A stretch of 64,000 nucleotides of DNA from Bacilli bacterium (GCA_022791775.1 JAAVZT010000033.1:8356-72355), one strand, 5' to 3'. Numbered from the stretch's first letter, positions 14,097 to 33,976 are shown. The notes: generated by a model not told the origin, from the letters alone. Translations and numbers: made by a program.

Positions 14097-14662
14097 TCTG
14101 GACTCACCATCCCACTAAATGTTGTTGCAACTCCCCCATTAAAGAAATTATCAATAATAATTCGTAAATCACTATTTGAAGTTTGTGTTGAATTTAATCC
14201 ACAATTAGCTAAATTACTAATCAAACTGTGAATTCGCTTCTGAACCACTTCCATTTTCTTTTCTTTAAATAAAATATAGTATTCTGTATCTACTACATTA
14301 TATTGAGCACTCATAAACATATTGGCTTTATTAATATCTTCTTGAATTAATTTTCTAGAAACATTCGTCTGTGCATTATTATATAAAATTTGAAGCTGTG
14401 AAAGATATACATTAATATCAACTGGTCGATCTGCAACAACTAACCAAAATTCATAATCGATAGAATTATAAAAATTTCGCAAATTATAAATCACATTATC
14501 TCGTGAACCCTGATCCATAATAAATATATTGCGTGGTTGAATCTTAATTCCAGTTACATACTCTTTATTATCGAGCTCAATCATACCATTCATAATTTGT
14601 TTGATCGGAATCCAATCTTCTGTCCATTTTGAAGCAAGTTCTTCTTTTTTATTTTTCGCCAT
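14093..14662 (-). CDS. VirB4 N-terminal domain encoded as a separate ORF (split virB4)
   Basis: 189-aa ORF whose TGA stop overlaps the ATG of the ATPase ORF (ATGA overlap). Together with that ORF it totals about 783 aa, typical for Gram-positive VirB4 (ConE/Orf16/TcpF-like). Confidence 0.55.
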   Translation of the reverse strand: MAKNKKEELASKWTEDWIPIKQIMNGMIELDNKEYVTGIKIQPRNIFIMDQGSRDNVIYNLRNFYNSIDYEFWLVVADRPVDINVYLSQLQILYNNAQTNVSRKLIQEDINKANMFMSAQYNVVDTEYYILFKEKKMEVVQKRIHSLISNLANCGLNSTQTSNSDLRIIIDNFFNGGVATTFSGMVSPE

Positions 14663-14960
14663 CTTTCATACACCAGCCTTTCCAATAATACCGTTTCCGA
14701 TTCATATAAAAGAGAAATATATTAGTCAAGAGTTGCATTACATTATGATAATTCGGAACGGGAACAACCAAAAAACCTGAAATAATAGCTGGAAGTAATA
14801 CTAAAAGTGCTGTTTGAAAATTCATCGATTGAAATATAAAAAGCAATATTAGCGTAACACTACATCCTACTCCAAATATGATTAAATCCAAATAGGTAAA
14901 GAAACCAAAAATAAGCTTTGATTTCTTTGTATTTGCTGGTATTAAATAATTCGTATTCAT
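14649..14960 (-). CDS. small two-TM membrane protein, VirB3-like position
   Basis: 103 aa with two hydrophobic helices, immediately upstream of virB4 as for VirB3/ConD/Orf17-type proteins. Confidence 0.4.
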   Translation of the reverse strand: MNTNYLIPANTKKSKLIFGFFTYLDLIIFGVGCSVTLILLFIFQSMNFQTALLVLLPAIISGFLVVPVPNYHNVMQLLTNIFLFYMNRKRYYWKGWCMKDGEK

Positions 14961-14978
14961 CTTTCACCCTTCTTAATT

Positions 14979-17435: not shown

Positions 17436-17880
17436 AGGTATCTAAACCATAAAGCCCAAAAATTTCAAACAATAAATCCAAAATAAATGGTAATAAAAAG
17501 ACAACTATACCTGCTACTAAGCGTTTTACAAACCTTCCATTCGCTTTTTTAATTTCATCTGCATTTTGCGCCGAAATTGCCTTTACATAATCTATCGTAG
17601 ATAAAGCAAGAACTAAAGTAGGAGCCAAAAACTTAATGAGCGTAAAAATATCCTGTAAAAATTCTTGCATTTGTGCATCAAAAAGCGCTTCACAGCCTTC
17701 TGTTGGACCAGCAGGTACAATCGGATCCATATTTCCATATTCCAAATCAGAAGAACCAGTTATAGTTTCTGGTTCAAAATATTTTATCTCAAACCCATAA
17801 GAAAAACGCTCTTTCGCTTCTACACTTTGAAACAAAACAAACACACACAAAAGAAAAAATAAAATTTTAGAGTATTTCAT
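17422..17880 (-). CDS. pilin-like hairpin protein E (signal peptide, about 70-aa ectodomain, VirB2/TrbC-topology two-helix module)
   Basis: C-terminal module LAPTLVLALSTIDYVKAISAQNADEIKKANGRFVKRLVAGIVVFLLPFILDLLFEIF aligns with the four downstream paralogs. The tail ends in a Cys. Confidence 0.55.
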   Translation of the reverse strand: MKYSKILFFLLCVFVLFQSVEAKERFSYGFEIKYFEPETITGSSDLEYGNMDPIVPAGPTEGCEALFDAQMQEFLQDIFTLIKFLAPTLVLALSTIDYVKAISAQNADEIKKANGRFVKRLVAGIVVFLLPFILDLLFEIFGLYGLDTCGIR

Positions 17881-17981
17881 ATTGAACTCCCCTCTACGAC
17901 TGATTCGTAAGACAATTTTTCACACAATCATTATATCAACTTTCCATAAAAAAAACTAGCATTATTTAAATTTGCTAGTTT

Positions 17982-18440
17982 TTAACACTTATTAGGAGAA
18001 GTAATACATAAACTACACTTTTGATAATCAGATTCATATGGATTAAATCCATCTACTAATTGAAAAACCAAATGAATCAAAGTCGGTAAAAAGAAAATTA
18101 CAACTCCTGATATTGCTCGAAACATTAAAGTACGAATAGCTTTTTTCATTTCATCATCTTTAGAACCAATCACCGCTTTTGAAAAATCCCATACGCCAAA
18201 AACAATTAATAAAATAGGAACGACAATCTTAATAACCATAAAAATTCTTCCCAAAAACCGAAATGGCTTTAGAAAATGAGGATTCGAACAAGGCGAAGAA
18301 TAAATAGTATTATTTGATTCATCTCCCATTTCATCACCAAGTGCAATCATTTCATCTAAAGAATTAGACGTAGCATACACAGGCATAACCTCAATTCCTA
18401 ACAACACTAGTAAAACTAATAAAAATCGTATTTTTTTCAT
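17982..18440 (-). CDS. pilin-like hairpin protein D (about 150 aa)
   Basis: Signal peptide (MKKIRFLLVLLVLLG), short ectodomain, then VPILLIVFGVWDFSKAVIGSKDDEMKKAIRTLMFRAISGVVIFFLPTLIHLVFQLVDG...CSLCITSPNKC. Start trimmed to the signal-peptide Met. Confidence 0.6.
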   Translation of the reverse strand: MKKIRFLLVLLVLLGIEVMPVYATSNSLDEMIALGDEMGDESNNTIYSSPCSNPHFLKPFRFLGRIFMVIKIVVPILLIVFGVWDFSKAVIGSKDDEMKKAIRTLMFRAISGVVIFFLPTLIHLVFQLVDGFNPYESDYQKCSLCITSPNKC

Positions 18441-18444
18441 ATTA

Positions 18445-19548
18445 TCACTCACTTTTAATCGTACATTCATCTGGATCTAAAATACAGACCCTACAATTAT
18501 GATAACGCGCCATGGTTTCAGAATAACCGTCTAATACTCCAAACAAAAATTCAATCAACGACGGCATCATAAAAATTACTACACCTATCAAAAAACGTTT
18601 TACTAAAACCGATACTTGTTTTGGAACATCATCGCTTTTTCCACTTAACATAGCTTTTCCAAAATCAATACTTCCTAGAACAATGATAATGAAAGGTACA
18701 AAAACTTTAACAATAAAAAGTAAAATTCCTAAAAATTTTAACGTTCTTGCCACTCGTGGCTCATAACATAAACCAGCTAAATTAATATCTTCATTTCCTT
18801 TTGATTCATCATGAAAAGAAGTATTATGATTCGAAGAATTCGCGCGTTCCATTGTAAAATATACATCATTACCTACTTCTTTTACAAAAAGACTACTTTG
18901 TTCACAACTTTTCGCATCTCGATAAAAATTATTTCCAATATCTTCACTAAAATAGAATGAGCGACCAGAAAGCTCTACCGAATCTTCTAAAAAGCCTTCG
19001 GTCCGTTGTTCATCATATGTTAATTCAAATTTCTTGGCTCCATCAGCATCTAAAAAGAAACGAATTCGCGCATTTTTACCATGAACCATAATAGATCGAT
19101 TACAAAAACTTTCCGATTGAGTTTCATTCCGAACTAATTGTACCATTGGAGTAATCAAAATAGCCTCTTCTTGAGTCACTTGACAAATTTGTGAAGAAGT
19201 ATAAATATGATAAAAACGGCTTTTTGTATCACGACAATAATACAAATCAGGAGCCTGATTTAAATAACTACCATCTTTAAAACTAAATGCTAATACATCT
19301 TGATCAAACTGATCCATAGAATTACCCTTTCCATAATAATCAATTCGATTTACTCCTTCAAAAAGAGCCCCAGACTTATATTCTTTCACAATTGTTCCGT
19401 CACTATATAAATCTAACATAAAACTAAGATCCATTCCTTCTTCTTGAAAAGAATACTCAAATGTTGCTAACAAATCACTAGCATTTACAAAAGTAGGAAT
19501 GAAAAGGAAAAAAATAGACACAATGATTTGTAAAATCTTTAATTTCAT
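18445..19548 (-). CDS. pilin-like hairpin protein C with about 300-aa N-terminal ectodomain
   Basis: Signal peptide MKLKILQIIVSIFFLFIPTFVNA. C-terminus VPFIIIVLGSIDFGKAMLSGKSDDVPKQVSVLVKRFLIGVVIFMMPSLIEFLFGVLDG...CRVCILDPDEC. Confidence 0.6.
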   Translation of the reverse strand: MKLKILQIIVSIFFLFIPTFVNASDLLATFEYSFQEEGMDLSFMLDLYSDGTIVKEYKSGALFEGVNRIDYYGKGNSMDQFDQDVLAFSFKDGSYLNQAPDLYYCRDTKSRFYHIYTSSQICQVTQEEAILITPMVQLVRNETQSESFCNRSIMVHGKNARIRFFLDADGAKKFELTYDEQRTEGFLEDSVELSGRSFYFSEDIGNNFYRDAKSCEQSSLFVKEVGNDVYFTMERANSSNHNTSFHDESKGNEDINLAGLCYEPRVARTLKFLGILLFIVKVFVPFIIIVLGSIDFGKAMLSGKSDDVPKQVSVLVKRFLIGVVIFMMPSLIEFLFGVLDGYSETMARYHNCRVCILDPDECTIKSE

Positions 19549-19558
19549 AAGAATCACC

Positions 19559-20821
19559 TTAACATTTCTTTGGACTTGTAATACATTTCGTACAATCTGA
19601 ATATGCCGTTTTATAATCGGTCCAGTCATCTACTAGAGAAAATAATACATGAATAACAGTTGGAATAAAGAAAATAACAACTCCTGCAATAGCTCGTATA
19701 GCAATTGTTTTAATCGATTTGGATAACTCTTCTGGATTTTGACTCACTACAGCTTTCATAAAATCAATTATTCCAAGAGTAATAATAATAATTGGAATCA
19801 AAAGACGAACGATCATTAAAATCCAACCAACGTATCGCATAGGAACTTTAAAATTTTGAGACTTACAAATTTGGCCTAATGTGATATCCGTCATAGTATA
19901 ACCCAAATCTTCTACTTGAGACCATTTATCATCTTCATTTTGCCCATCATTTCCATCCGTCTTGGCATTTGCTTTATAATGAACCAAATCATTCATAGCA
20001 CCAGTAAACAAATTTTTTTGTACAGCACATACAATCGAACCAGCAGCTACTTCTCCTCCAAACATTTCCTTAGCCTGATTTCGAATACTAAGACTAACAG
20101 ACAACTTACCACAATAAATATCTGTTGGCCATGTTTTTTTCTCAACCACTGGCTTAATAATTTCATTTGTATAATTCTCTATTCCAGAATGAACAAAAAT
20201 GACATTTTGCGTTTGATGAAATAAAATCATTTTTGATGATAAAGAATACTGATTTTGAAAATCATATTTAAAATAAAAAGTTAAATTTCCAAATTGATGA
20301 TCTGATCCTTCAGCATAATAAGTTTTTTTATATTCCTTAACAGATGAAGAAATTTCCATCTCGCCATCTTCCTTTTGAATCAAATCATCTTCTAATGAAG
20401 TTTTATCACTTAATGCAGCCCAAGTAACTGAAGTCAAAACACCTTGATATTTTAAATAATTATCCCGATCGGAATCCCCATAGATTAAATAGTAACCAGC
20501 TACATTTAATTGAGTTGGATTAACGGTCGTAATATTCATGATGTAATCTGGACACCGTTTTAAACTTTGATAATTTGTTTGAACACTATCATCATTTTTA
20601 AAAGAAGAAATAGAACGAGCAGGATTAATTTGATGGCCATCATAATATTGCAATCCAGAAAAAGTTCCATCTTGATAAAAGGTCACATCAACACCTAAAT
20701 ATCCGCCTTCTTTCCCACTATAATATTTACAAACACGATCTATTTCCTTAGCTTGTCCCACAAAAAGAAAACCAAAACATATAACACTCGCAAAAACGAC
20801 TCTTTGAATTATTTTTTTCAT
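19559..20821 (-). CDS. pilin-like hairpin protein B with about 350-aa N-terminal ectodomain
   Basis: Signal peptide MKKIIQRVVFASVICFGFLFVGQA. C-terminus IPIIIITLGIIDFMKAVVSQNPEELSKSIKTIAIRAIAGVVIFFIPTVIHVLFSLVDD...CTKCITSPKKC. Confidence 0.6.
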   Translation of the reverse strand: MKKIIQRVVFASVICFGFLFVGQAKEIDRVCKYYSGKEGGYLGVDVTFYQDGTFSGLQYYDGHQINPARSISSFKNDDSVQTNYQSLKRCPDYIMNITTVNPTQLNVAGYYLIYGDSDRDNYLKYQGVLTSVTWAALSDKTSLEDDLIQKEDGEMEISSSVKEYKKTYYAEGSDHQFGNLTFYFKYDFQNQYSLSSKMILFHQTQNVIFVHSGIENYTNEIIKPVVEKKTWPTDIYCGKLSVSLSIRNQAKEMFGGEVAAGSIVCAVQKNLFTGAMNDLVHYKANAKTDGNDGQNEDDKWSQVEDLGYTMTDITLGQICKSQNFKVPMRYVGWILMIVRLLIPIIIITLGIIDFMKAVVSQNPEELSKSIKTIAIRAIAGVVIFFIPTVIHVLFSLVDDWTDYKTAYSDCTKCITSPKKC

Positions 20822-20910
20822 AAGTATCTCCACTTCTTTTAAAGCTAAATTTATTATAACAAAAATACACACAAGAAACTAGAGAAAAAGAAAAAACAGT
20901 TTTCACTGTT

Positions 20911-21294
20911 TTATTCTCCATCTTCCTCTACGCTACAAAGAGAAGAATTCGGATTGGAAATACATGCCTTACATATATCAAAGTCATCTTTTACTTGTGC
21001 AAAGTTTCCAACAATTCCCATTAATACTCCAACAATAGTTGGAATAAAGAAAATGACAACGGCTGCAATCGCTCTTTTTAACAAAGCATTTGTTGCTTTT
21101 TTAATTTCATCATCTTTAGAAGCAATAACTGCTTTTCCCAAATCGATCATTCCAAAAACAATTAACAAAATAGGAATAACAATTTTAAATACCATTAAAA
21201 CATAACCTAATGTTTGCCAAATACTTGCAGAGGCAGAACAAAAACCTGCTTCAGTTCCTACATCATATCCCAAAAATATTAACTTACTTAACAT
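20911..21294 (-). CDS. minimal VirB2/TrbC-like pilin candidate A (127 aa)
   Basis: Long signal-like N-terminus, then a helix-charged loop-helix hairpin (VIPILLIVFGMIDLGKAVIASKDDEIKKATNALLKRAIAAVVIFFIPTIVGVLMGIV) and a CKACISNPNSSLC tail. Size and topology match VirB2/TrbC pilins. Confidence 0.55.
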   Translation of the reverse strand: MLSKLIFLGYDVGTEAGFCSASASIWQTLGYVLMVFKIVIPILLIVFGMIDLGKAVIASKDDEIKKATNALLKRAIAAVVIFFIPTIVGVLMGIVGNFAQVKDDFDICKACISNPNSSLCSVEEDGE

Positions 21295-21359: not shown

Positions 21360-22379
21360 TTATTTAAAAATGTTAAATAATTTACTACCTTTCTCCTGTT
21401 TTTCATCTTCAATTCGCATAAAACCCATTTTTATTAAAAATTCATCTAAAATTTTATGGTGATCCAACTTATCATCTAAATAAGGTAAATTAAAATAAAC
21501 TTTACTTTTCGATTCATATTCAAAATCCTTAATATCTGCTTCATTTAAAACACTACGATTTAAAACAATTTTTTTATCGCGCAATTTTTCAAAAGCACGT
21601 CTATCTTTTCGAATTAATTTATTTAACTTAATCAACCCAGGTTCAATTAAATAAATTACTTCATTACAATGACTAACTGGACCTTTATCATTTAAATCAA
21701 CTAAAATGACTTCATGATTTGCATGTTTAACAATAAATTGAGGTAAATCTGGAGTCGTTGTATGATATAAGGTTTTATCATTAAAATACATAAAATCATT
21801 CTGATCTACTTCCACTGCAATCACATCATACTTAGAAGATAATTGTTTCTTTAATAAATAAGTAAGTGTTGTACTGCCAGCATGATCTGTAATATTTTTA
21901 ATTCCAATTACACGCATAGGTACATTACTAGAAGTATGAGTACTATCTGTATTAGTGACAGGTGGTACCACAGAAACTGGTTCATAGTTACCAACATCAT
22001 TAAGTTGATGGTATTGTGCTACATCCTTATAAGTATTTGGATTATCGATCAAAAACCTTACTGCATCAATATTTCGTGTAAAATTATAAATCCCCATGGA
22101 AACCAATTGAGATAAATAACGCGGACTATTTACAACTTCCGAATCATCTAGTAACAAAATAACTTTACTCATATCCATATTCACAGATAATTCTTGTATC
22201 ATAGAAATATTTTGATAATCCTTAATTGCAGTAATATCTAAAATCATTTTATTAAAATAAAAATTACTAAATGTCGTCACTAGTTCATCCGCTGAAAATA
22301 CACCATTTAAACTTTTAATAATATCAATATCTAATGTAGAAATTAAAGATTGATATTTATTTGATACAATTACATTCAT
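21360..22379 (-). CDS. TadZ/CpaE-like pilus-assembly protein candidate (N-terminal receiver-like domain plus degenerate ParA/MinD fold)
   Basis: IGIKNITDHAGSTTLTYLL lies at the position of a deviant Walker A but lacks the lysines. HEVILVDLND is a Walker B-like hydrophobic strand. Location next to the pilin and platform genes also fits. Confidence 0.35.
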   Translation of the reverse strand: MNVIVSNKYQSLISTLDIDIIKSLNGVFSADELVTTFSNFYFNKMILDITAIKDYQNISMIQELSVNMDMSKVILLLDDSEVVNSPRYLSQLVSMGIYNFTRNIDAVRFLIDNPNTYKDVAQYHQLNDVGNYEPVSVVPPVTNTDSTHTSSNVPMRVIGIKNITDHAGSTTLTYLLKKQLSSKYDVIAVEVDQNDFMYFNDKTLYHTTTPDLPQFIVKHANHEVILVDLNDKGPVSHCNEVIYLIEPGLIKLNKLIRKDRRAFEKLRDKKIVLNRSVLNEADIKDFEYESKSKVYFNLPYLDDKLDHHKILDEFLIKMGFMRIEDEKQEKGSKLFNIFK

Positions 22380-22401: not shown

Positions 22402-22887
22402 TTAATTTAAAATAACTGGTACATCATCTTTTGGAAAATTAATGTCAATAGTTGAGCCAGATACATGAAATGTAAATAAATCCCCAATAATTGGCAAATT
22501 AAATTGAAAAAATGTATCGATTTCATATCTTGCTCTATTTCGAAAAGAACTATCGCTTGTATTAATCTTTTTGACGCAATAATAATATTTTACTCCACTA
22601 CTTGCTCGCACCAAAGAAGCATCATCTAAAGATACAGCTCCATAAGTATCCGTCGGACAATTTCCTTTCGCTTGATAATGATAATACCGTAAATAGTTAT
22701 TAATAAGTGAAACGCTCTTATTTTCTCCTGACATAACTCCTTCGTACTTCTCAATAATAGAAAGCATCTCATTTTTAATTTTAAAAGCCTTGGTATAATT
22801 AATTGACAAAGCTAAAAAACCAACAAAAATCAACATAAATAGGATAACTAATTGCAAAATCCATGTAGAACCGATTGCTTGTCTCAT
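22402..22887 (-). CDS. TadE/pseudopilin-like protein 1
   Basis: N-terminus MRQAIGSTWILQLVILFMLIFVGFLALSIN (short polar leader, Gly, hydrophobic helix), then a roughly 120-aa globular domain. Paralog of the next gene. Confidence 0.4.
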   Translation of the reverse strand: MRQAIGSTWILQLVILFMLIFVGFLALSINYTKAFKIKNEMLSIIEKYEGVMSGENKSVSLINNYLRYYHYQAKGNCPTDTYGAVSLDDASLVRASSGVKYYYCVKKINTSDSSFRNRARYEIDTFFQFNLPIIGDLFTFHVSGSTIDINFPKDDVPVILN

Positions 22888-22891
22888 TTTC

Positions 22892-23410
22892 TCACCTACT
22901 TACACTCATAACTTTGGTATCACCTGTTAAAGAAAACATAAATAATTCATTAAAAACAGGTAAATCTAGCTGATAAAATACAACAACTCGATAATAACGC
23001 ATATTTGGTAATTCTTGAACCTGTTGCGGAATATCAGAACCATTTTTATCTCCCATTTTAACCTCTGCCAAACAAAAAGCTGGATTCGTCTTATCTTTCT
23101 TTCCTTCTCGATTATATCCTTGATAAACAATTTCTAATTTATTTTTAGAACTAGTTACATCTGCTGGACACTTACCCGTCGTTCGATAAGAAGAATGTTT
23201 TAAAATATTAGCAATTTCTTCTAATACAACACTTCCACTACTATCCGTACTAAGATCCACTCCATTATAACGTTCAATTACTTCTAGAATTTCACTTTTA
23301 ACACCATATGCTTTGGAATGGTTAATAGTTAAACACATAAATCCCGTAAAAAGCAAAATGAAAAAAATGACAATTTGAAATAACCAAGTTCCACCTATTG
23401 CTTCTCTCAA
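22892..23410 (-). CDS. TadE/pseudopilin-like protein 2
   Basis: N-terminus MREAIGGTWLFQIVIFFILLFTGFMCLTIN. Same architecture as the previous gene. Confidence 0.4.
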   Translation of the reverse strand: MREAIGGTWLFQIVIFFILLFTGFMCLTINHSKAYGVKSEILEVIERYNGVDLSTDSSGSVVLEEIANILKHSSYRTTGKCPADVTSSKNKLEIVYQGYNREGKKDKTNPAFCLAEVKMGDKNGSDIPQQVQELPNMRYYRVVVFYQLDLPVFNELFMFSLTGDTKVMSVSR

Positions 23411-23429
23411 AAATCATCACCCATTTCTA

Positions 23430-23660
23430 TTAACCTTTCCAAACGCATGTGAATTTCTCAGATCTTCGTCCTTTATAATAACAGTCCACAGTTCCATCTG
23501 CATTTGGTTTTTTTTCACATATAGCATCACTGCATTTGGTTGTTCTCGCCATATTATTCCGAATCATTGGCCAGATAATCGTAAAGAAAAAAGCTGCTAG
23601 AATAGCGACCACTATTATTACAAAAACAGTCATATTAAGTTCTCCAGTAGCTTCTTTCAT
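23430..23660 (-). CDS. Flp-size pilin-like protein 1 (76 aa) with Cys-rich C-terminus
   Basis: MKEATGELNMTV leader, then a hydrophobic helix (FVIIVVAILAAFFFTIIWPMI), then a tail with 5 Cys. Confidence 0.4.
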   Translation of the reverse strand: MKEATGELNMTVFVIIVVAILAAFFFTIIWPMIRNNMARTTKCSDAICEKKPNADGTVDCYYKGRRSEKFTCVWKG

Positions 23661-23688
23661 ATATTATCTTTCACCTACGATTTCCTTA

Positions 23689-23928
23689 TTATTTATTATT
23701 GTTATTTGGACAAGTAACTTTTTCACTTACACCTTTTTCATTCAAATATTGACAAGTACAAGTATTTCCTTTACTACAATCACAATTTGTAACATTTGCA
23801 CATTTAGTACTATTTAAAATATTAGTCTTAATACTTGGCCATATAAATGCATAAAAGAATGCGGCTACAGCAGCAATTGCCACAACAGTAACAACTGTCA
23901 TATTTAATTCTCCGGTTGCTTCTTTCAC
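23689..23928 (-). CDS. Flp-size pilin-like protein 2 (79 aa) with Cys-rich C-terminus
   Basis: GTG start. KEATGELNMTV is identical to its paralog although the DNA differs at synonymous sites. Hydrophobic helix, then a tail with 7 Cys. Confidence 0.4.
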   Translation of the reverse strand: MKEATGELNMTVVTVVAIAAVAAFFYAFIWPSIKTNILNSTKCANVTNCDCSKGNTCTCQYLNEKGVSEKVTCPNNNNK

Positions 23929-23989
23929 GAATAGACCCTCCTTTACTATATTTTTATTATAACTGGTTCTTCTAAAAATATCAATTCAT

Positions 23990-24778
23990 TTACATATTCA
24001 TTAACATAAGTACAGCTAAAATCAATAAAACCATTACACCCAAACCAGTCGCAATTAACATATGCATGGTTTTTCCTTCCATTTTCTCCAAACGTTCTTT
24101 ATATTTAATCTCTCTCGCCTTTTGTTGCAAATTAGAAATCGTCTTCGAAAATGCTAATAATTGTTCTTGTTTATGTTCTTGTCTTCCAAGACTCAAACGA
24201 TATAACAAACGCATCATTCGCATAGAATCACGCACAGGATACGTTTTAGCAAAATTCATGTATGGATCAATTCGGTCATTTCCCGCATTAATCTCATTAA
24301 TCATTTCCTGAAGTCCCTCTTTAAAAATAGATGGTGCATCTTCAATAGATTTACCAAGAGCCACAGGAACAGTATAATGTTGAATTAAAATTTCTAAACT
24401 TTTTAAATAATGCGGTAACATCGAATCAATTTCATGTAAATGAGCTTTATAATATTTCTTTAAATTGGAATAATCCATTTTAAAAACTAAATATCCTCCA
24501 ATTAAAGAAAAAATTATTGTAATATAACTAATTTTACTAAGAAAGAAAAATACTAAAACTAAAATTGTCAATAACCCATTTTGAATTCGTTTATTAAAAA
24601 GGAAATCAGGATTTACTCCATCGCCATATTTTGCTTTAACATAAAAGTCCCAATCTGACTCTTTTAATTTTCGAAAATAAACTTCATTATCCGCTACAAA
24701 ACGATTTGCACTAATTCGTCCTGTATAATTTAAAAGAAATAAAATAATCGCTCCCAAAATAAATATTTCAAAATACAT
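23990..24778 (-). CDS. TadC-like pilus platform membrane protein (single T2SS-F-type domain)
   Basis: N-terminal TM, a paired TM, a roughly 130-aa cytoplasmic domain and a C-terminal TM. Adjacent to a second similar protein and the secretion ATPase. Confidence 0.45.
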   Translation of the reverse strand: MYFEIFILGAIILFLLNYTGRISANRFVADNEVYFRKLKESDWDFYVKAKYGDGVNPDFLFNKRIQNGLLTILVLVFFFLSKISYITIIFSLIGGYLVFKMDYSNLKKYYKAHLHEIDSMLPHYLKSLEILIQHYTVPVALGKSIEDAPSIFKEGLQEMINEINAGNDRIDPYMNFAKTYPVRDSMRMMRLLYRLSLGRQEHKQEQLLAFSKTISNLQQKAREIKYKERLEKMEGKTMHMLIATGLGVMVLLILAVLMLMNM

Positions 24779-24780
24779 AA

Positions 24781-25674
24781 TTATTCAACCCCCACATCTT
24801 CATAATAGAATTTCTCTCCCGTTATCAAAAAATAACAATTCACTACAATAATAATGTGAAGAATTAATTGTACATACCACATATCAAGCATCTCAATATA
24901 ACTATCGGTCCCCAGTAAAAATTGCATTGCCATAACGAGTAAAAATAATGCCAAACCAAAAGTAACAAATCGCTTGTGAAAATCAGCACGATCAATTTGA
25001 TCTCGGTATACACCTTCAACCAAAGCATCGATATCCATCGACATATTTTCCAAAGCTTCTCCTGAATCCTTGGCCCCTTCTTTAGTAATTTGTAAAAATA
25101 ATTGATTCATATTCTTAACCATATAATACGGATATTTTTCATTAAAATAAACGACTGACTCATCTATCGTTCCGTTTTGATATGACATATCGATCATAGT
25201 TTTAACATCTGATAAAACGGGATCTTCTAAAATACCTGAATCCCGAACGCCTTCCAGCGATTTTACAAAACTTTGCGTTGTATTAAATTCCATAATTACA
25301 TTCGTTGTATAAATTTGAATCTGTTCAAAAATAAATTCACTGTATACTTTTTGACATCTTAAATAAGCCAAATAAGGAATAAATGCTACTGCAATTGCAC
25401 CATACATTATTGCAATTAAAATATTATAAAAATACAAATAAGAAATTCCTCCAGCTACTCCAGCAAAAATGATAACTTGCGTTGCATATTGCTTTGGTGT
25501 GTACTCCTGGCCTAATTCTTTTGTTTTTGCTCGTACTTCTTTAAAACTATAGGGCGCATATTTATTATAAGCATTAGAAACCTGGGTAATAAAGAAACGA
25601 TATACATTCTCCCCATTATTTCTTCGATAAGAAATAACAAAAATGGCTATAATAATCAGAATGATTAGTTCCAT
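24781..25674 (-). CDS. TadB-like pilus platform membrane protein (single T2SS-F-type domain)
   Basis: Same topology class as the previous gene. The pair of about 260- and 300-aa single-domain platform proteins matches the TadB/TadC pattern rather than ComGB/PilC. Confidence 0.45.
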   Translation of the reverse strand: MELIILIIIAIFVISYRRNNGENVYRFFITQVSNAYNKYAPYSFKEVRAKTKELGQEYTPKQYATQVIIFAGVAGGISYLYFYNILIAIMYGAIAVAFIPYLAYLRCQKVYSEFIFEQIQIYTTNVIMEFNTTQSFVKSLEGVRDSGILEDPVLSDVKTMIDMSYQNGTIDESVVYFNEKYPYYMVKNMNQLFLQITKEGAKDSGEALENMSMDIDALVEGVYRDQIDRADFHKRFVTFGLALFLLVMAMQFLLGTDSYIEMLDMWYVQLILHIIIVVNCYFLITGEKFYYEDVGVE

Positions 25675-25688: not shown

Positions 25689-26798
25689 CTACAATGTTTC
25701 CATTGCTGTATTTTGTTCCCCTGCTTCCATACTGGCTCTTTCATCTAAATGAAAGATATCTGAAGGTAATGTAACACCCTGAATACCCAAATAATCTCGC
25801 AAATATTTCGTCGGATTATTCATCACTAATTCTCCAGTTAAATTCTTTCGAAAAATCGTATTCACTTGGGGTCTATTATCTTCATCTACATAAAATTCAC
25901 AAACTTCCATAATTTCACGTTGAAATCTACCCAGTTCTTTACTTAAATAACCTTTTACATATATCCCAATTTGTACATAACGATGAATGGTAGTTAAAAA
26001 TTGATCTACATCCAAATTAGATTCCAACAAACTAAACATACGAAGTGGAATCAAACTTGCTTTATCAGAATGGATGGTTGATATAATATGATGCCCTGAA
26101 GAAATCGAATTTCGAACAGCTGTAACAGCTTCTGCACTACGTACCTCAGAAAGCAAAATCCAAATTGGATTCTGCCGCATACAGGTAACCAATACTTCTG
26201 AATAACTTGCAATATTATTTGTTTTCATTGCAACAATATCTCGGTGAGGAAAAATTTTATCTAAATGAAGTTCTAATGTATCTTCAATGGTAATAATCTT
26301 TTCATTTTCCTTCGTATGACTTGCCAAATATTTAACTAATTCAGTTTTACCAGAACCAGTTTCACCACTCACTATAATATTGGCATGTCCTTGAACACAA
26401 CTTAACAAAAAGTTTAGAATTTCTTCTGAAACATATTTTTCATCCAACAATTTTTCACGATTTAATCTTATCTTTGCTGGCGTTTTACGAATTACACAAG
26501 CAATTCCATTTGTAGCAATTGAATCATGCACAAAATTAAGACGCAACTCGGCACTTTCCGCATCAAGAAAAGGATGAGCCATATTGAAGGTCTTTCCCAT
26601 AACATTAGCACATTGAAATGCTAATTTCTCCATCAAGGGATCATTGATATCGGGCCTGTCAACTTGATAAACACCTTTATCCAAAGTTTTTAGCCAAACG
26701 CGACCATTATTACTATACGAAATATCAGTTATATTATCATCAACCAAAAAATCATTCAATGGTCCAAAATCAATTTGCGAAAAGACAGCTTCATGCAT
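25689..26798 (-). CDS. VirB11/TadA(CpaF)-family secretion ATPase
   Basis: Walker A IIVSGETGSGKTELV, Asp box ITIEDTLEL and His box RQNPIWILLSEVRSAEAVTAVRNSISSGHHIISTIHS. 369 aa. Confidence 0.85.
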   Translation of the reverse strand: MHEAVFSQIDFGPLNDFLVDDNITDISYSNNGRVWLKTLDKGVYQVDRPDINDPLMEKLAFQCANVMGKTFNMAHPFLDAESAELRLNFVHDSIATNGIACVIRKTPAKIRLNREKLLDEKYVSEEILNFLLSCVQGHANIIVSGETGSGKTELVKYLASHTKENEKIITIEDTLELHLDKIFPHRDIVAMKTNNIASYSEVLVTCMRQNPIWILLSEVRSAEAVTAVRNSISSGHHIISTIHSDKASLIPLRMFSLLESNLDVDQFLTTIHRYVQIGIYVKGYLSKELGRFQREIMEVCEFYVDEDNRPQVNTIFRKNLTGELVMNNPTKYLRDYLGIQGVTLPSDIFHLDERASMEAGEQNTAMETL

Positions 26799-26812: not shown

Positions 26813-27667
26813 TTATTCATTTGTATTATTATTATTATTATTATCGTTATTTATATTTCCGGAATTTATTGTATTATTAGGTGCTCCCTCTGGAATAACG
26901 ACAGATTGTGACAAGATAAAATCTTGAATATAAGCACTTGACACTCTAGTTTCTCCAGGATTTGCTGAATAAGAAGCATTTCTTGGCACTGGAATTATTT
27001 CAACACTGTTTCCAGAAATGTAATTTGCTTTCTTTAATAAACTAAACATATCATCTGGAACTGCAAATACCAATACAGCAGGAATACGTGCCTCAACCGA
27101 AGTTTCAAATACATGTTGTCCTTCTGAATCACGTACATCTAATACTTCAATACTTTCAATTAATTTACCAAAAATAATCTTTCGATTTTCATCAAATCCT
27201 TTAAAATACAAATCAATGTAATTACCTGGATAAATAGAATTTCCATAAGTAGAATTAATATCCACATCTAAATAAATAATTGTATATCCATCCGGGATAT
27301 TACTAATCGCAAAATCAGGAGTGTTAGCTGCATCTGTAATTTGCTCTGTATAGAAAAAACCATTTTGCGGAATCATATTCCCATATTGAACTTGCTTTCC
27401 AACTAATTGACTAGCATTCTGAATTAAATTTTTACTTTTACTAACTACTTCTCTAGATACCTCCATATATCCAATATCTTCCAATGTTATTTCATGTCTT
27501 GAAATAAGTTGATTTTTAGCATAAGGAATTTGAACTGGATCGGTAGCTTGTTTTACTCTCCAAGTATATCCTATATAAAGTACTAAAATTCCCGCAATAA
27601 CTCCGATGATCGTTACTGTATTCTTATTTCCTAAAAATCGTTTAATTGATGTTAAAACATTTCCCAT
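26813..27667 (-). CDS. CpaB/RcpC-like (SAF-domain) pilus assembly protein candidate with poly-Asn C-terminal tail
   Basis: N-terminal TM then a SAF-like region (LISRHEITLEDIGYMEVSREVV). C-terminal NNDNNNNNNTNE is encoded by an (ATT)n run. Confidence 0.4.
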   Translation of the reverse strand: MGNVLTSIKRFLGNKNTVTIIGVIAGILVLYIGYTWRVKQATDPVQIPYAKNQLISRHEITLEDIGYMEVSREVVSKSKNLIQNASQLVGKQVQYGNMIPQNGFFYTEQITDAANTPDFAISNIPDGYTIIYLDVDINSTYGNSIYPGNYIDLYFKGFDENRKIIFGKLIESIEVLDVRDSEGQHVFETSVEARIPAVLVFAVPDDMFSLLKKANYISGNSVEIIPVPRNASYSANPGETRVSSAYIQDFILSQSVVIPEGAPNNTINSGNINNDNNNNNNTNE

Positions 27668-27724: not shown

Positions 27725-28612
27725 CTATCTATTATTAATAATATCACGTATATCTGGAATATTTCCCTTTAAATAAGGTCTAATTCTACTGATAATAACT
27801 AATTTTTCTCGCTCTGTAAATGTAATACCATAATCTTGTTCAAAATCTTCGATAAATTTACTTTCTTTATTTGGTCGATGAAGAGGAAAGCATCTGTTTA
27901 AAATAGAAACAGAATTACTATAATACAAATCTCCACTAATTGTTCCAGAATTAGATCCTGTAGTTGAATTATCTTCCCGATCTCCACTAGAATTATTTGA
28001 ACTAAGACCTGGACACCAAAAATAACGATTTAAATTTTCAGAAAGATAAGCCAAAAGTTGTCTTTCTGTTGGAATACGACTTATATTTGGATTATAAATA
28101 TAAGATAAGTTATCATCAGACCCCGAATTATCTAAACTTGGAGGTGTTCCAGTAGAAGGTGTCACATTATTCGGACGTGTAGCATTTTCCATAACACTAC
28201 TTCCATTTGATGCCCCATTTAATTCTAATACAGCATCAATTTTTTCTACAATATCAAAACTAGTTGAATCTCCCATTACACGATAAGTGCCACTTTTGGT
28301 TGTAACTTTCACGCTGGCTTTTGGAGGAGCTTCATAAATATCATAAAAATCTATTTGATAAGTATTAATTGAAGCATTCTCCGCAAATCTTCGCAAGAAA
28401 TTCTCTACAAATTTCTCGCGATTAATTCGAAGTTCTGAGAATTGACGATAATAACTATAATCAATAGCATCTACCATTGCGGCTTCCGTAACATCTTTGA
28501 TCATATAATAATCTTGTGTACTAGAAGAGGTAACATTAGAAACTAACATCATAATGACTACAACGAAAATTCCCAATAGGATAATCCAATATCCCCATAA
28601 AGATTCTTTCAT
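27725..28612 (-). CDS. pseudopilin-like membrane-anchored protein (295 aa)
   Basis: N-terminus MKESLWGYWIILLGIFVVVIMMLV shares the short polar leader, Gly-x-Trp and hydrophobic helix pattern of the TadE-like pair. Confidence 0.35.
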   Translation of the reverse strand: MKESLWGYWIILLGIFVVVIMMLVSNVTSSSTQDYYMIKDVTEAAMVDAIDYSYYRQFSELRINREKFVENFLRRFAENASINTYQIDFYDIYEAPPKASVKVTTKSGTYRVMGDSTSFDIVEKIDAVLELNGASNGSSVMENATRPNNVTPSTGTPPSLDNSGSDDNLSYIYNPNISRIPTERQLLAYLSENLNRYFWCPGLSSNNSSGDREDNSTTGSNSGTISGDLYYSNSVSILNRCFPLHRPNKESKFIEDFEQDYGITFTEREKLVIISRIRPYLKGNIPDIRDIINNR

Positions 28613-32641: not shown

Positions 32642-33408
32642 AATATTCTACTCCTCCGCTTTTTCAAAATCACAATAGCCGATAGAGCCCCTCCGATAAT
32701 TATTACAACAACGACGCTAATAATTATCGTTCGATGTTCGGAAATAAAATCACTTAGATTATCCCAAAAACTTTTATTCTTTTCTTCTTCTTTCTTTTGT
32801 TGTAACTTAGAATATTCTTCTCCAATTCGTTTTGTTATCTCAGACTCTGATGCATAAAACGGAGTCGTAATAAATTCCTGACAAAACTCATAATTTGGTA
32901 AATCAGCACAGGCACTGATATCAGAATAATGATTCCGCATTGGTGTGCTATAATCGATGGTTCTTAAATTATCTCCCTTACATCTCGGGGAATTAGAATA
33001 AATGGTAATTTTATAATTAACAATTTCACTAAAATCTCCTCCATCAAATTCTAACACTCCATCTTTCATATCCTTATAATAAAAAGTTTGTTCAAAATTA
33101 TTGCTTCCTTTAACATGAATATAAATATCATCAGTCATATTTAAGATATTTACTAAAGCTTTATCCATAAAGCCATAGTCATCATAACCTGCATTTTCAG
33201 AATACGCTTCTTCTGGAAGAGTATCATAATAATTTCCATTCACATCAAAATAAACTCGCTTTTTTTCATAATTCATTTTAATTGCTGCTGCATAGTTACT
33301 TAATTGGACCTGTTCCGAATAATCACACGTCGATGCTGCATTCACATCTACCCCCACCAAAAGTACCCACAACAAACATCCTAAAAACACTTTTTTAAAA
33401 TATTTCAT
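32638..33408 (-). CDS. secreted protein with C-terminal TM anchor and basic tail; first gene of the cluster
   Basis: Signal peptide, about 200-aa ectodomain with 5 Cys, C-terminal TM plus KKRRSRIL. ATGA overlap with the giant gene. Confidence 0.55.
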   Translation of the reverse strand: MKYFKKVFLGCLLWVLLVGVDVNAASTCDYSEQVQLSNYAAAIKMNYEKKRVYFDVNGNYYDTLPEEAYSENAGYDDYGFMDKALVNILNMTDDIYIHVKGSNNFEQTFYYKDMKDGVLEFDGGDFSEIVNYKITIYSNSPRCKGDNLRTIDYSTPMRNHYSDISACADLPNYEFCQEFITTPFYASESEITKRIGEEYSKLQQKKEEEKNKSFWDNLSDFISEHRTIIISVVVVIIIGGALSAIVILKKRRSRIL

Positions 33409-33964: not shown

Positions 33965-33976
33965 AAAGAGGAAAGC

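What the first reader, a model, noticed from the sequence alone, without database searches (positions are those of the whole stretch)
22402..23928. Five pilin or pseudopilin candidates share an M[KR][EQ]A.G leader lacking the canonical +5 Glu, and no prepilin peptidase gene is in the window
The two Flp-size proteins begin MKEATGELNMTV (and VKEATGELNMTV with a GTG start). They are identical in protein over 11 residues despite several synonymous DNA differences, which points to purifying selection on the leader. The TadE-like pair begin MRQAIGSTW and MREAIGGTW, and the 295-aa protein at 27725..28612 begins MKESLWGYW. Each has a short polar leader ending in Gly, followed by a hydrophobic helix. 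This is the class III signal peptide pattern, but without the G-XXXX-EY Flp motif or a Glu at +5. The Flp-like proteins also carry Cys-rich C-terminal tails with 5 and 7 Cys. No TadV/PilD/FlaK-like aspartyl peptidase is present in the 64 kb. Processing would therefore depend on a peptidase encoded elsewhere, or these proteins are unprocessed membrane anchors.
Basis: seen in the sequence. Interest (0 to 1): 0.7.

Follow-up and report, generated by a model that had tools for sequence, protein, structure and literature searches.

The report
Tad-like pilins with noncanonical conserved leaders
Four small genes (plus a fifth nearby) encode pilin-shaped membrane proteins with a very short, almost invariant N-terminal tag; they belong to a Tad-pilus-like motor built into a Gram-positive DNA-transfer (type IV secretion) locus that hundreds of uncultured gut Bacilli keep in their chromosome, and whose plasmid counterparts (pLS20, pAW63, pXO1) are still listed as 'unknown function'.

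Summary
The ORFs and leaders are real. Four proteins start with M[KR][EQ]A.G (0.05 expected by chance). The fifth, MKESLWG, fits only a looser pattern. The Cys counts are 6 and 4, not 5 and 7.

The leader is not a recent duplication. Across 38 related loci MKEATGELN is nearly invariant, and all four Ala and Gly codons are used. In all three families it is the most conserved block of the protein.

The genes lie between TadB/TadC-like platform proteins, a CpaF/VirB11-type ATPase and a CpaB-like protein on one side, and a Gram-positive T4SS on the other. The whole arrangement matches the 'unknown' genes 34-41 of pLS20, and also pAW63, pZB18 and pXO1.

No A24 peptidase turned up in the window, in 10 kb beyond each end, in 80 related loci, or in five plasmid relatives.

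Cleavage after Gly is plausible for the Flp-size and 160-aa proteins, where Gly is 99-100% conserved. It is doubtful for DUF5411, where Gly is 79% conserved and is replaced by I, T or L in some members. Processing remains untested.

The parts
23956..23984 (-). Promoter-like site TTGATA-17-TATAAT, 27 nt upstream of the F79 start codon
   Evidence: This is the best match in the region, at 11 of 12 positions. The same hexamers and spacing end 25-35 nt before the first Flp-size gene in 33 of 38 related loci. That holds even where 3-4 kb of extra genes separate it from TadC.
23689..23928 (-). F79: 79-aa Flp-size pilin candidate. Leader MKEATG, then ELN, a hydrophobic stretch of about 22 aa, and a variable 6-Cys tail
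   Evidence: A Shine-Dalgarno sequence AAGGAGGG precedes the GTG start. The first 10 residues have an entropy of 0.3 bit, against 2-2.5 bit in the tail.
23430..23660 (-). F76: 76-aa paralogue with the same leader, a 4-Cys tail, and a C-terminus ...CVWKG
22892..23410 (-). E172: 172-aa minor-pilin-like protein starting MREAIGGTW..Q12
22402..22887 (-). E161: 161-aa paralogue of E172 starting MRQAIGSTW..Q12
21360..22379 (-). 339-aa soluble protein in the position of TadZ, identity unverified. It always co-occurs with the F and E genes
   Evidence: It co-occurs in 31 of 31 loci. There is no Pfam, NCBIfam or PDB sequence match.
23990..24778 (-). TadC-like polytopic membrane protein (262 aa)
   Evidence: An HMM built from its orthologues hits the Priestia plasmid neighbour of a T2SSF protein (1.4e-15), pLS20 p39 (5e-5) and the pZB18 235-aa protein (2e-4). 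There is no direct Pfam hit.
24781..25674 (-). TadB-like platform protein (297 aa)
   Evidence: An HMM built from its orthologues hits the Priestia 'type II secretion system F family protein' at 1.1e-13. That protein matches Pfam T2SSF at 3.4e-5, 24.2 bits against a cut-off of 25.2. There is no direct Pfam or PDB hit.
25689..26798 (-). CpaF/VirB11-type secretion ATPase (369 aa)
   Evidence: It matches Pfam T2SSE at 5e-25. The nearest NCBIfam models are VirB11, TadA and TrbB. The closest solved chains are CpaF 8rkd and VirB11 1g6o. It is 76-92% identical in the 80 best related loci, and 577 stretches in GTDB species genomes were confirmed as relatives.
26813..27667 (-). CpaB/RcpC-like protein (284 aa)
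   Evidence: RcpC scores 5.5e-4 and TIGR03177 CpaB scores 3.3e-5, both below their cut-offs. An HMM hits the Priestia SAF-domain protein at 1.4e-33.
27725..28612 (-). DUF5411 protein (295 aa), starting MKESLWGYW: a pilin-shaped N-domain of about 135 aa carrying a variable C-terminal part
28625..33408 (-). 1338-aa secreted protein with 51 Cys, and a 256-aa secreted protein anchored at its C-terminus. These are the first genes of the operon, in the position of the adhesin
   Evidence: They are syntenic in 67-68 of 80 loci. pLS20 Tie, the pAW63 CDS26 surface protein and the pZB18 SpaA-like protein occupy the same position.
17422..21294 (-). Five proteins with a C-terminal two-TM domain of the PF18895 T4SS_pilin type. 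Four end in C-x2-C-x5-7-C
   Evidence: Pfam matches three of them (162, 127 and 152 aa) at 1.6e-7 to 3e-4, and only the 127-aa protein clears the 26.6-bit cut-off. The 394- and 437-aa proteins have no hit and are assigned by the shared C-terminal sequence.
6745..17435 (-). T4SS core: VirB6/TrbL-like protein (14979-17435), VirB4 as two ORFs (14093-14662 and 12312-14096), SpoIID/NlpC-P60 wall hydrolase (9791-12244), a lipoprotein (9071-9778), and VirD4 of the CD1115 family (6745-8967)
33524..34690 (+). Divergently transcribed membrane-anchored thioredoxin-like protein (CxxC) and a CPBP/Rce1-like intramembrane protease
   Evidence: A thioredoxin/PedC-like gene recurs next to the system in a different lineage. 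The CPBP gene is adjacent in 17 of 45 loci, in L081/L093/L094, and in the pZB18 tra region.

Best explanation
F79, F76, E172, E161 and the DUF5411 protein are pilin-type subunits of a Tad-like (type IV filament) module. Each has a long N-terminal hydrophobic helix and a small extracellular head. The module consists of a CpaF/VirB11-type ATPase, two TadB/TadC-like platform proteins and a CpaB-like protein.

The module is an integral part of a pLS20/pAW63-type Gram-positive T4SS locus. In this lineage of uncultured low-GC gut Bacilli the locus sits at a fixed chromosomal site.

Inferred mechanism:
1. The proteins insert into the membrane N-in, C-out.
2. Their 6-7-residue leader is recognised at the cytoplasmic face and probably removed after the Gly by an A24 prepilin peptidase encoded elsewhere.
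3. The ATPase and platform then lift them out of the membrane into a short fibre or pseudopilus through the thick wall.
4. The strongly promoted Flp-size proteins form the bulk of the fibre. E-type and DUF5411 proteins act as minor or tip subunits that display variable heads (wall hydrolases, adhesin repeats), the Cys-rich adhesins, and the T4SS channel.

What is shown:
- The gene set and its homologies.
- Conservation of the leader and of the promoter.
- The predicted lollipop shape.

What is inferred:
- Membrane topology.
- Polymerisation into a fibre.
- Cleavage of the leader.

My probability that these are subunits of a Tad-like machine is about 0.75. My probability that the leader is cleaved after Gly by an A24 peptidase is about 0.45.
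For: Gene set:
- The ATPase is T2SSE, and its closest solved chains are CpaF and VirB11.
- TadB links to T2SSF through the Priestia plasmid protein.
- TadC links to pLS20 p39.
- CpaB/RcpC matches are weak, but the link to a SAF-domain protein is strong.
- Gene order matches pLS20 genes 34-41, pAW63 CDS 26-19, pZB18, and the Bacillus thuringiensis plasmid pSY27.1_8 (L095). pXO1 holds the same genes in another order.

Shape:
- The DUF5411 N-domain is similar, at lower confidence.

Orientation:
- DUF5411 homologues carry extracellular-type C-terminal domains such as M23, M15, Big_2 and SH3.
- The Flp-size tails have 4 or 6 Cys.
- A membrane thioredoxin gene is adjacent in two different lineages.

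Leader:
- Among 79 Flp-size ORFs from 38 loci, A4, G6 and N9 are 100% conserved, with all four Ala and Gly codons used.
- Met10 is kept in only 52 of 79, so it is not an alternative start. A Shine-Dalgarno sequence precedes M1 in 77 of 79.
- In E-type proteins G6 is conserved in 184 of 186 and Q12 in 181 of 186.
- MKEATGE and MRDA.GG recur in a divergent lineage whose tails are unrelated. There position 12 is Lys, so it remains polar as E5 does in classical pilins.
- The first 10 residues are the most conserved block in all three families.

Expression:
- A TTGATA-17-TATAAT promoter is conserved just upstream of the first Flp-size gene in 33 of 38 loci.

Precedent:
- From memory, tadV is unlinked from the tad locus in Bifidobacterium breve.
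Against: - There is no Pfam or NCBIfam match to Flp, TadE or pilin families.
- No A24 peptidase was found in the window, in 10 kb beyond each end, in 80 related loci, in L081 or L091-L094, or in five plasmid relatives.
- There is no D/E at +5 and no basic residue at -2.
- The Flp-size N-tail has net charge -1 and the C-side flank +2, which runs against the positive-inside rule.
- In DUF5411, Gly7 is only 79% conserved (A 11, S 4, I 4, T 1, L 1 of 100). It is less conserved than W6 (92%) and Y8 (91%).
- Plasmid counterparts have conserved leaders without a Gly at the junction. Examples are pLS20/pZB18 MLDQN.DR, pZB18 MPKIILL and the Bacillus thuringiensis plasmid's ..NKVSWTY.
- 22 of 53 loci lack the F, E and 339-aa genes altogether, so they are not needed by the core motor.
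- The 339-aa 'TadZ' and the TadB/TadC paralogy could not be verified.
Confidence: 0.5

Rival explanations
1. The machine and the structural role are the same, but the leaders are not cleaved. The invariant 6-9-residue N-tail would be a cytoplasmic recognition tag for the platform or ATPase, or an interfacial anchor such as W-G-Y in DUF5411. The proteins would act as membrane-anchored stalk or pseudopilus or channel accessory subunits of the T4SS.
For: - No A24 peptidase gene is present in any of about 95 loci examined.
- DUF5411 Gly7 can be replaced by I, T or L, and the flanking aromatic residues are more conserved than the Gly.
- Plasmid analogues have conserved Gly-less leaders.
- The leader is the most conserved block of each protein, which fits a part that is retained and functional.
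- There is no +5 acidic residue.
Against: - Gly6 is 99-100% conserved in the F and E families, with all four codons in use. It lies exactly at the polar/hydrophobic junction, as in class III signal peptides.
- A charged, uncleaved tail (K, E, E) would be hard to bury in a filament core or to pull out of the membrane.
- pXO1's small proteins have a classical long basic leader ending in Gly.
Confidence: 0.28
2. The leaders are removed, but by a protease other than A24. One candidate is the CPBP/Rce1-like intramembrane protease encoded divergently next to the operon.
For: - A CPBP gene lies directly upstream in the window, in 17 of 45 related loci, and in L081, L093 and L094.
- A CPBP gene also sits in the tra region of pZB18, upstream of the adhesin.
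- From memory, the staphylococcal CPBP enzyme MroQ is needed for N-terminal processing of AgrD.
Against: - The CPBP gene travels with its housekeeping neighbours (metallophosphoesterase, FtsW), so conserved synteny alone explains its adjacency.
- It is absent next to the system in L091/L092, in L010/L017, and in the pLS20, pXO1 and Priestia plasmid loci.
- It is present beside loci that lack the F and E genes.
Confidence: 0.07
3. F79 and F76 are not pilins. They would be small secreted or membrane-bound Cys-rich peptides of the bacteriocin, pheromone or exclusion-factor type, with the N-terminus serving as a Sec or YidC targeting sequence.
For: - They are small, with Cys-rich, hypervariable C-termini.
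- There are weak Pfam hits to FeoB-associated Cys-rich membrane protein, E 0.013-0.2.
- The net-negative N-tail with a positive C-flank resembles YidC-inserted N-out proteins.
- PedC-like thioredoxins, as found here, are otherwise bacteriocin-associated.
Against: - Signal peptides are normally poorly conserved, whereas here the first 30 residues are the invariant part.
- The hydrophobic stretch is about 22 residues long and has no AxA site.
- One lineage has a Cys-free tail but the same leader.
- The genes always sit between the platform genes and the E-type genes, and co-occur with them in 31 of 31 loci.
Confidence: 0.05
4. The conserved 'leader' is not translated. It would be a 5' UTR carrying a ribosome-binding site (GGAGAA) for a start at the internal ATG at codon 10.
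For: GGAG lies 8 nt before the internal ATG in both window genes.
Against: - Codon 10 is Met in only 52 of 79 homologues, and is otherwise A, T, I, S or V.
- Codons 4, 5, 6, 8 and 11 vary synonymously while the amino acid is fixed.
- A strong Shine-Dalgarno sequence precedes codon 1 in 77 of 79.
Confidence: 0.01

Closest known systems
Tad/Flp pilus (Aggregatibacter tad, Caulobacter cpa, Bifidobacterium tad)
   Same: - A CpaF-type ATPase.
- Two separate platform proteins (TadB, TadC).
- A CpaB/RcpC-like protein.
- Tandem Flp-size genes followed by two pseudopilin-size genes.
- A short polar leader ending in Gly before a hydrophobic helix of about 20 residues.
- The peptidase can be unlinked from the locus (B. 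breve, from memory).
   Different: - There is no G/XXXXEY Flp motif and no +5 Glu.
- There are no Flp or TadE Pfam hits.
- The leader is only 6 residues long and is net neutral or negative.
- The heads are Cys-rich.
- There is no TadV in the locus and no verifiable TadZ.
- The module is embedded in a T4SS operon and carries a DUF5411 protein.
Conjugation operons of the pLS20 / pAW63-pXO2 / pZB18 (pHT-beta-like) plasmid families. pLS20 genes 34-41 are Tie adhesin, p36, VirB11 p37, p38, p39, p40 and p41
   Same: - The order is the same: large surface adhesin, DUF5411-type protein, CpaF/VirB11 ATPase, two polytopic membrane proteins, a DUF4320-type protein of about 120 aa, tandem single-TM proteins of about 50 aa, a VirB2-like protein, then VirD4 (CD1115 family), VirB6 (p028-like), VirB4 and a wall hydrolase.
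- None of these plasmids encodes a prepilin peptidase in the region.
   Different: - Here the locus is chromosomal and sits at a conserved site. No relaxase or integrase was identified and there are no tRNA genes.
- It has an extra CpaB-like protein, a 339-aa protein, and five PF18895 paralogues.
- The leaders differ: MKEATG and MREAIG here, against MLDQN.DR and MLDGAV/MQEQSI on the plasmids.
- Homology of the F-type to p41 was not detected, and homology of the E-type to p40 is only moderate, at 73% by hhalign.
- The literature calls p36 and p38-p41 'unknown' and states that the pLS20 family encodes no pilus components (PMC8557374).
Predicted 'secretion-related operon' of gut Clostridia containing CpaF, PilC/GspF and DUF5411 (Miller et al. 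2022, PMC9523054)
   Same: It has the same core triad plus a surface adhesin-like protein, is found in gut Firmicutes, and is uncharacterised.
   Different: That paper reports no pilin candidates, leaders or T4SS linkage. I could not fetch those loci to compare them.
Archaeal class III signal peptides (FlaK/PibD/EppA substrates)
   Same: The leader is short, cleavage comes before the hydrophobic helix, and no +5 Glu is required.
   Different: From knowledge, archaeal sites need K/R at -2. Here -2 is T, I or W. No archaeal-type peptidase was found.
Modular minor type IV pilins (for example Streptococcus sanguinis PilB/PilC)
   Different: There is no sequence relationship, no canonical leader, and only weak fold support.

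Membership tests
Type IV pilin / class III signal peptide (PilFind-type rule, PMC3244431) | A short N-terminal leader with Gly or Ala at -1, directly before a hydrophobic stretch of about 20 residues | tested here: met
   In the F-type, G6 is conserved in 79 of 79. In the E-type, G6 is conserved in 184 of 186. For DUF5411 it holds only partly, with G 79% and G/A/S 94%.
Type IV pilin / class III signal peptide (PilFind-type rule, PMC3244431) | Asp or Glu at +5 of the mature protein | tested here: not met
   Position +5 is T in the F-type, F in the E-type (or Q/K if cleavage follows residue 7), and L in DUF5411.
Type IV pilin / class III signal peptide (PilFind-type rule, PMC3244431) | A positively charged leader | tested here: inconclusive
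   K or R at position 2 is conserved, but E/Q at position 3 (and E7 in the F-type) make the tail net 0 to -1.
Type IV pilin / class III signal peptide (PilFind-type rule, PMC3244431) | Cleavage by an A24 aspartyl prepilin peptidase | not testable with these tools
   No A24 gene was found in any sequence available. The rest of the genome (GCA_965115265.1) could not be read.
Type IV pilin / class III signal peptide (PilFind-type rule, PMC3244431) | The pilin fold: a long N-terminal alpha-1 helix packed on an antiparallel sheet | tested here: inconclusive
Flp pilin (PF04964) | The Flp motif G/XXXXEY, and a match to the family model | tested here: not met
   There is no Pfam or NCBIfam hit at E<=1. 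The sequence after Gly is ELNMTV.
TadE/TadF pseudopilin (PF07811) | A match to the TadE N-terminal model | tested here: not met
   E172 and E161 match no family at E<=1. None of the 120 listed homologues has a Pfam domain.
DUF4320 (PF14208; pLS20 p40 type) | Profile similarity to DUF4320 proteins | tested here: inconclusive
   hhalign of A1 against three p40-type proteins gives 73% probability over 58 columns. hmmsearch gives E=0.6. The Priestia member itself scores 24.3 bits against a cut-off of 25.
DUF5411 (PF17424) | A match above the Pfam gathering score | tested here: met
   181 bits against a cut-off of 30, covering residues 1-131.
Tad secretion/assembly system | A TadA/CpaF-type ATPase | tested here: met
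   T2SSE scores 88 bits. The best solved chain is CpaF, tied with VirB11. The protein is below the NCBIfam equivalog cut-offs.
Tad secretion/assembly system | Two T2SSF-type platform proteins (TadB, TadC) | tested here: inconclusive
   The link is only transitive, through the Priestia T2SSF protein at 1e-13. There is no direct Pfam hit. hhalign of TadB against TadC is not significant.
Tad secretion/assembly system | A TadV prepilin peptidase and a TadZ ParA-like protein in the locus | tested here: not met
   No A24 gene was found. The 339-aa protein has no ParA/MinD match. The Priestia, Bacillus thuringiensis and pXO1 plasmid relatives do have a ParA-like gene.
pLS20/pAW63-type Gram-positive T4SS | VirD4 of the CD1115 family, VirB4, a p028-type VirB6 and a wall hydrolase next to a VirB11-type ATPase | tested here: met
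   conju_CD1115 scores 297 bits, above its cut-off of 250. VirB4 matches Mbov_0397 and CD1110. The p028 match is weak at 27 bits. SpoIID and NlpC/P60 domains are present. Synteny with the plasmids is shown.
pLS20/pAW63-type Gram-positive T4SS | A relaxase and oriT, meaning a mobile conjugative element | tested here: not met
   No relaxase, integrase or tRNA gene was found in the window. The locus sits at the same chromosomal site in many species.

The most novel reading that the evidence does not exclude
pLS20/pAW63-type Gram-positive T4SSs, and their domesticated chromosomal descendants in gut Bacilli, may contain a previously unrecognised branch of the type IV filament superfamily. Its pilins would use a new kind of leader (MKEATG/E, MREAIG/G..Q) that does not depend on an A24 prepilin peptidase. 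The leader would be either retained or cut by a different enzyme. This branch would build the long-missing 'pilus' of Gram-positive conjugation-type machines.
Probability: 0.2. Interest if true: 0.85.

Novelty: new variant of a known kind. Interest (0 to 1): 0.6.

Why it matters
Reviews of Gram-positive conjugation state that these T4SSs make no pili, and that pLS20 genes 36 and 38-41 are of unknown function (PMC8092201, PMC8557374). This locus shows those genes as a coherent Tad-like set: an ATPase, a platform, a CpaB-like protein, and three classes of pilin-shaped proteins, one of which has its own strong conserved promoter.

The set is kept at 76-92% ATPase identity in the 80 closest species genomes of uncultured gut Bacilli, with 577 relatives confirmed in all, apparently without a relaxase. 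If the proteins polymerise, this would be the contact, wall-crossing or adhesin-display device of a large class of Gram-positive DNA or protein transfer systems. It could also be a core cell-cell interaction organelle of an abundant, uncultured gut lineage.

The leader gives a concrete sequence rule that current pilin finders would miss, because they require E/D at +5. pLS20 in Bacillus subtilis is a tractable model in which to test all of this.

Tried and rejected
- Internal ATG at codon 10 as the true start: rejected.
- Direct family assignment of the F and E proteins with Pfam and NCBIfam: nothing found.
- Sequence search of the 339-aa and TadB-like proteins against the PDB: nothing found.
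- Foldseek of the E172 model against the PDB: no significant hit. The afdb50 library was not available.
- hhalign of TadB against TadC, E against DUF5411, F against E, and F against PF18895: not significant.
- HMMs of the F and E families against pLS20, pZB18 and Priestia plasmid ORFs: no significant hits.
- Search for multi-TM A24-like ORFs in 80 loci: only BacA, permeases and spurious ORFs.
- tblastn of the window's DUF5411 against plasmids: no match. The Priestia homologue was needed as a bridge.
- Literature searches for DUF4320, and for RF39 pili or competence: nothing useful.
- NCBI taxonomy for the related MAG names: uninformative. The assignment to the RF39 lineage is therefore my inference from record names only.
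- CPBP protease as the leader peptidase: kept only as a low-probability rival, because its adjacency follows chromosomal synteny.
Full report
THE OBSERVATION

The minus strand between 22402 and 23928 carries four tightly packed ORFs:
- F79 (23689-23928) has a GTG start preceded by AAGGAGGG.
- F76 (23430-23660) follows it.
- E172 (22892-23410) has a TTG start.
- E161 (22402-22887) is the last.

F79 and F76 share the first 12 residues, MKEATGELNMTV, despite four synonymous codon differences. E172 and E161 begin MREAIGG and MRQAIGS.

The pattern M[KR][EQ]A.G occurs at the start of exactly these four of 1304 possible start-to-stop ORFs in the window. About 0.05 are expected by chance.

The fifth protein, at 27725-28612, begins MKESLWG and fits only a looser pattern. 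The Cys counts are 6 and 4, not 5 and 7. None of the five has an acidic residue five positions after the Gly.

No Peptidase_A24 match appeared in any Pfam or NCBIfam scan of the window's ORFs.

THE LEADER IS ANCIENT AND CONSTRAINED

The neighbouring ATPase has relatives in at least 577 GTDB species-representative genomes. The 80 best are 76-92% identical. All are MAGs titled uncultured Bacilli, Tenericutes, 'Mycoplasma sp. CAG:776' or Erysipelotrichaceae. The window itself matches NCBI MAG GCA_965115265.1.

In 38 of these loci I found 79 Flp-size genes:
- A4, G6 and N9 are invariant, and every Ala and Gly codon is used.
- The internal Met10 is present in only 52 of 79, which rules it out as the real start.
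- A Shine-Dalgarno sequence precedes codon 1 in 77 of 79.

In 186 distinct E-type proteins, G6 is 99% conserved, W9 95% and Q12 97%.

In all three families the first ten residues are the least variable block of the protein. Entropy there is 0.3-0.75 bit, against 2-3 bit in the heads.

A second, divergent lineage (L091/L092) has a DUF5411 that starts MKWSFASVG. Its Flp-size proteins still start MKEATGEVSMTV, with unrelated tails, one of them free of Cys. Its E-type proteins start MRDA.GGTFMIK. Position 12 is now Lys, so it is still a polar residue inside the hydrophobic helix.

WHAT THE GENES BELONG TO

Upstream in the same operon are:
- a secreted 256-aa protein
- a secreted 1338-aa protein with 51 Cys
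- the DUF5411 protein (PF17424, 1e-53)
- a CpaB/RcpC-like protein
- a T2SSE ATPase whose closest solved relatives are CpaF and VirB11
- two polytopic membrane proteins

Downstream are:
- a 339-aa protein
- five proteins with a PF18895 T4SS_pilin-type C-terminal domain, three of them matched by Pfam
- a VirB6/TrbL-like protein
- VirB4
- a SpoIID/NlpC-P60 hydrolase
- a CD1115-family VirD4

The ATPase's closest plasmid relatives lie in the transfer regions of pLS20-family Bacillus plasmids, Enterococcus pZB18, and Lactococcus, Brochothrix and Priestia plasmids. The gene order there is the same:
- big adhesin, small N-anchored protein, ATPase, two membrane proteins
- then a protein of about 120 aa and tandem proteins of about 50 aa
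- then a VirB2-like protein, VirD4 and VirB6

pAW63/pXO2 show the same string (PMC1196294). pXO1 and a Bacillus thuringiensis plasmid carry DUF5411, DUF4320, CpaB, a ParA-like ATPase, CpaF/VirB11 and small TM proteins.

Profile HMMs built from the window's orthologues tie these together:
- TadB-like to a Priestia protein that PGAP names T2SSF (1e-13). That protein matches Pfam T2SSF at 3.4e-5.
- TadC-like to pLS20 p39 (5e-5).
- DUF5411 to pLS20 p36 (2e-4).
- CpaB-like to a SAF-domain protein (1e-33).

The E-type family matches DUF4320/p40-type proteins only moderately, at 73% by hhalign.

The published pLS20-family analysis lists p36 and p38-p41 as unknown and says the family has no pilus components (PMC8557374). 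The adhesin paper notes that Gram-positive T4SSs seem not to develop pili (PMC8092201). A language-model study flagged CpaF + PilC + DUF5411 operons in gut Clostridia as an uncharacterised secretion-related system (PMC9523054).

ARE THEY PILINS?

AlphaFold2 with a 49-sequence alignment folds E172 (pLDDT 76) into a 45-residue N-terminal helix, a short second helix and a four-stranded sheet.

The DUF5411 N-domain folds similarly at lower confidence (pLDDT 63). Its matches to pilins sit among generic alpha/beta hits.

Other observations point the same way:
- DUF5411 homologues carry swapped extracellular C-terminal domains, as modular minor pilins do: M23, M15 and C39-like peptidases, Big_2, Flg_new and SH3. 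This fixes the topology as N-in, C-out.
- The Flp-size tails carry an even number of Cys, and a membrane thioredoxin gene lies next to the system in two lineages. Both argue that these tails are extracellular too.
- A TTGATA-17-TATAAT promoter ends 25-35 nt before the first Flp-size gene in 33 of 38 loci. It stays there even when kilobases of other genes are inserted after TadC. This is what one expects of an abundant structural subunit.

IS THE LEADER A CLEAVED CLASS III SIGNAL PEPTIDE?

In favour:
- The leader has the right length.
- K or R is conserved at position 2.
- A near-invariant Gly sits exactly at the polar/hydrophobic junction in the F and E families.
- A conserved polar residue lies 5-6 positions later in the E-type.
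- pXO1's small proteins have a classical long basic leader ending in Gly.

Against:
- There is no +5 acidic residue and no basic residue at -2.
- The F-type N-tail is net negative and its C-flank positive.
- In DUF5411 the Gly is only 79% conserved and can be I, T or L, while the flanking Trp and Tyr are over 90% conserved.
- The plasmid counterparts have equally conserved leaders without a junction Gly.
- No A24 peptidase gene was found anywhere I could look. That covers the window, 10 kb beyond each end, 80 related loci, five further contigs, and five plasmid loci.

Unlinked peptidases have precedent: tadV in B. breve (from memory) and host ComC for Bacillus plasmids. Absence from the locus is therefore not decisive. 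I could not read the rest of the genome.

I put cleavage after Gly at about 0.45 for the F and E families, and lower for DUF5411.

ARCHITECTURE ACROSS SPECIES

The core is the 256-aa protein, the big adhesin, DUF5411, CpaB, the ATPase, TadB and TadC. It is present in essentially all loci.

The F, E and 339-aa genes occur together in 31 of 53 loci that have enough downstream sequence, and are jointly absent in the other 22. Of those 22, 13 have a single PF18895 protein right after TadC, followed by housekeeping genes.

Arrays of several PF18895 paralogues occur only where the F/E module is present, in 14 of 27 loci against 0 of 20.

The four genes of the finding are thus an accessory pilin set that travels with the expanded T4SS part. 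DUF5411 is the universal pilin-shaped component.

The locus sits at the same chromosomal site in several sublineages, beside a metallophosphoesterase, a CPBP protease and FtsW. I found no relaxase, integrase or tRNA gene. This suggests a domesticated system rather than an active mobile element.

VERDICT

What is there is a Tad-like type IV filament module with non-canonical, strongly conserved pilin leaders. It is built into a pLS20/pAW63-type Gram-positive T4SS locus.

It is a new variant of a known kind. The components exist in databases as DUFs and 'hypothetical' proteins. Their reading as a pilus or pseudopilus set, and the leader rule, are not in the literature I could search.

Processing, topology and polymerisation are inferred, not shown.

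Noticed in passing
window 12312-14662 (- strand): VirB4 is encoded as two ORFs that overlap by 4 nt. The 189-aa ORF matches model positions 93-276 and the 594-aa ORF matches positions 294-891 of the Mbov_0397-family VirB4. This is either a natural split or a frameshift.
   Followed up: no
window 23956-23984 (- strand); loci L001-L079: A TTGATA-17-TATAAT promoter is conserved 25-35 nt upstream of the first Flp-size gene in 33 of 38 loci. It stays with the gene even when 3-4 kb of other genes separate it from TadC, as in L012, L027 and L075.
   Followed up: yes
window 27725-28612; proteins P0136-P0225: The DUF5411 N-domain of about 135 aa is fused in different species to Peptidase_M23, Peptidase_M15, Peptidase_C39_2, Big_2, Flg_new, SH3_3 or DUF402. 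In L093 the C39_2 part is a separate downstream gene.
   Followed up: partly
loci L031, L036, L052, L059, L061 and others: 22 of 53 loci lack the Flp-size, E-type and 339-aa genes altogether. In 13 of them TadC is followed by a single PF18895 T4SS_pilin-type protein and then by housekeeping genes that look like an AddAB helicase-nuclease pair by size and N-terminal sequence. There is no T4SS nearby.
   Followed up: partly
window 17422-21294 (- strand): There are five paralogues with a PF18895-type C-terminal two-TM domain (three matched by Pfam, two assigned by sequence similarity) and very different N-terminal parts, from 127 to 437 aa. Four end in a conserved C-x2-C-x5-7-C tail.
   Followed up: no
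window 33524-34690 (+ strand); L091 2259-3700; L085 5650-6096: A membrane thioredoxin (CxxC) and a CPBP/Rce1-like protease are transcribed divergently from the operon. Thioredoxin/PedC-like genes flank the system in an unrelated neighbourhood (L091/L092). A CPBP protease also sits in the tra region of Enterococcus plasmid pZB18.
   Followed up: partly
window 28625-32641 (- strand): The 1338-aa secreted protein has 51 Cys and no Pfam match. It is only about 28% identical among related loci, while the motor genes are about 80% identical.
   Followed up: no
L086 11574-11887; L085 11020-11172; L096 24818-25300: The plasmid counterparts also have tandem small single-TM proteins with their own conserved leaders. 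pLS20-like has two identical 47-aa copies starting MLDQNADR, and pZB18 has MLDQNTDR. pXO1 has two 67/68-aa copies with a long basic leader ending ...SSENG before the hydrophobic stretch.
   Followed up: partly
L091 11643-12086; L092 15099-15554: In a divergent lineage the conserved Gln12 of E-type proteins is replaced by Lys (MRDAFGGTFMIKL). A polar or charged residue is therefore kept at this depth of the helix.
   Followed up: no
window 35638-36144, 38013-39017, 48161-48490: Spore-related genes (CotZ-like, SleB-type cell-wall hydrolase, Cse60) are present, so this reduced-genome gut Bacillus may be a spore former.
   Followed up: no
window 51904-54812 (- strand): Two tandem sigma-70-family paralogues of 472 and 478 aa have long, similar N-terminal extensions.
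   Followed up: no
window 23990-24778: The TadC-like protein gives a weak NCBIfam hit to the Mycoplasma MG_279/MG_280 two-TM family (E 0.007). The Priestia T2SSF protein gives a weak Pfam hit to MG280. This may be a distant link to Mollicutes proteins of unknown function.
   Followed up: no
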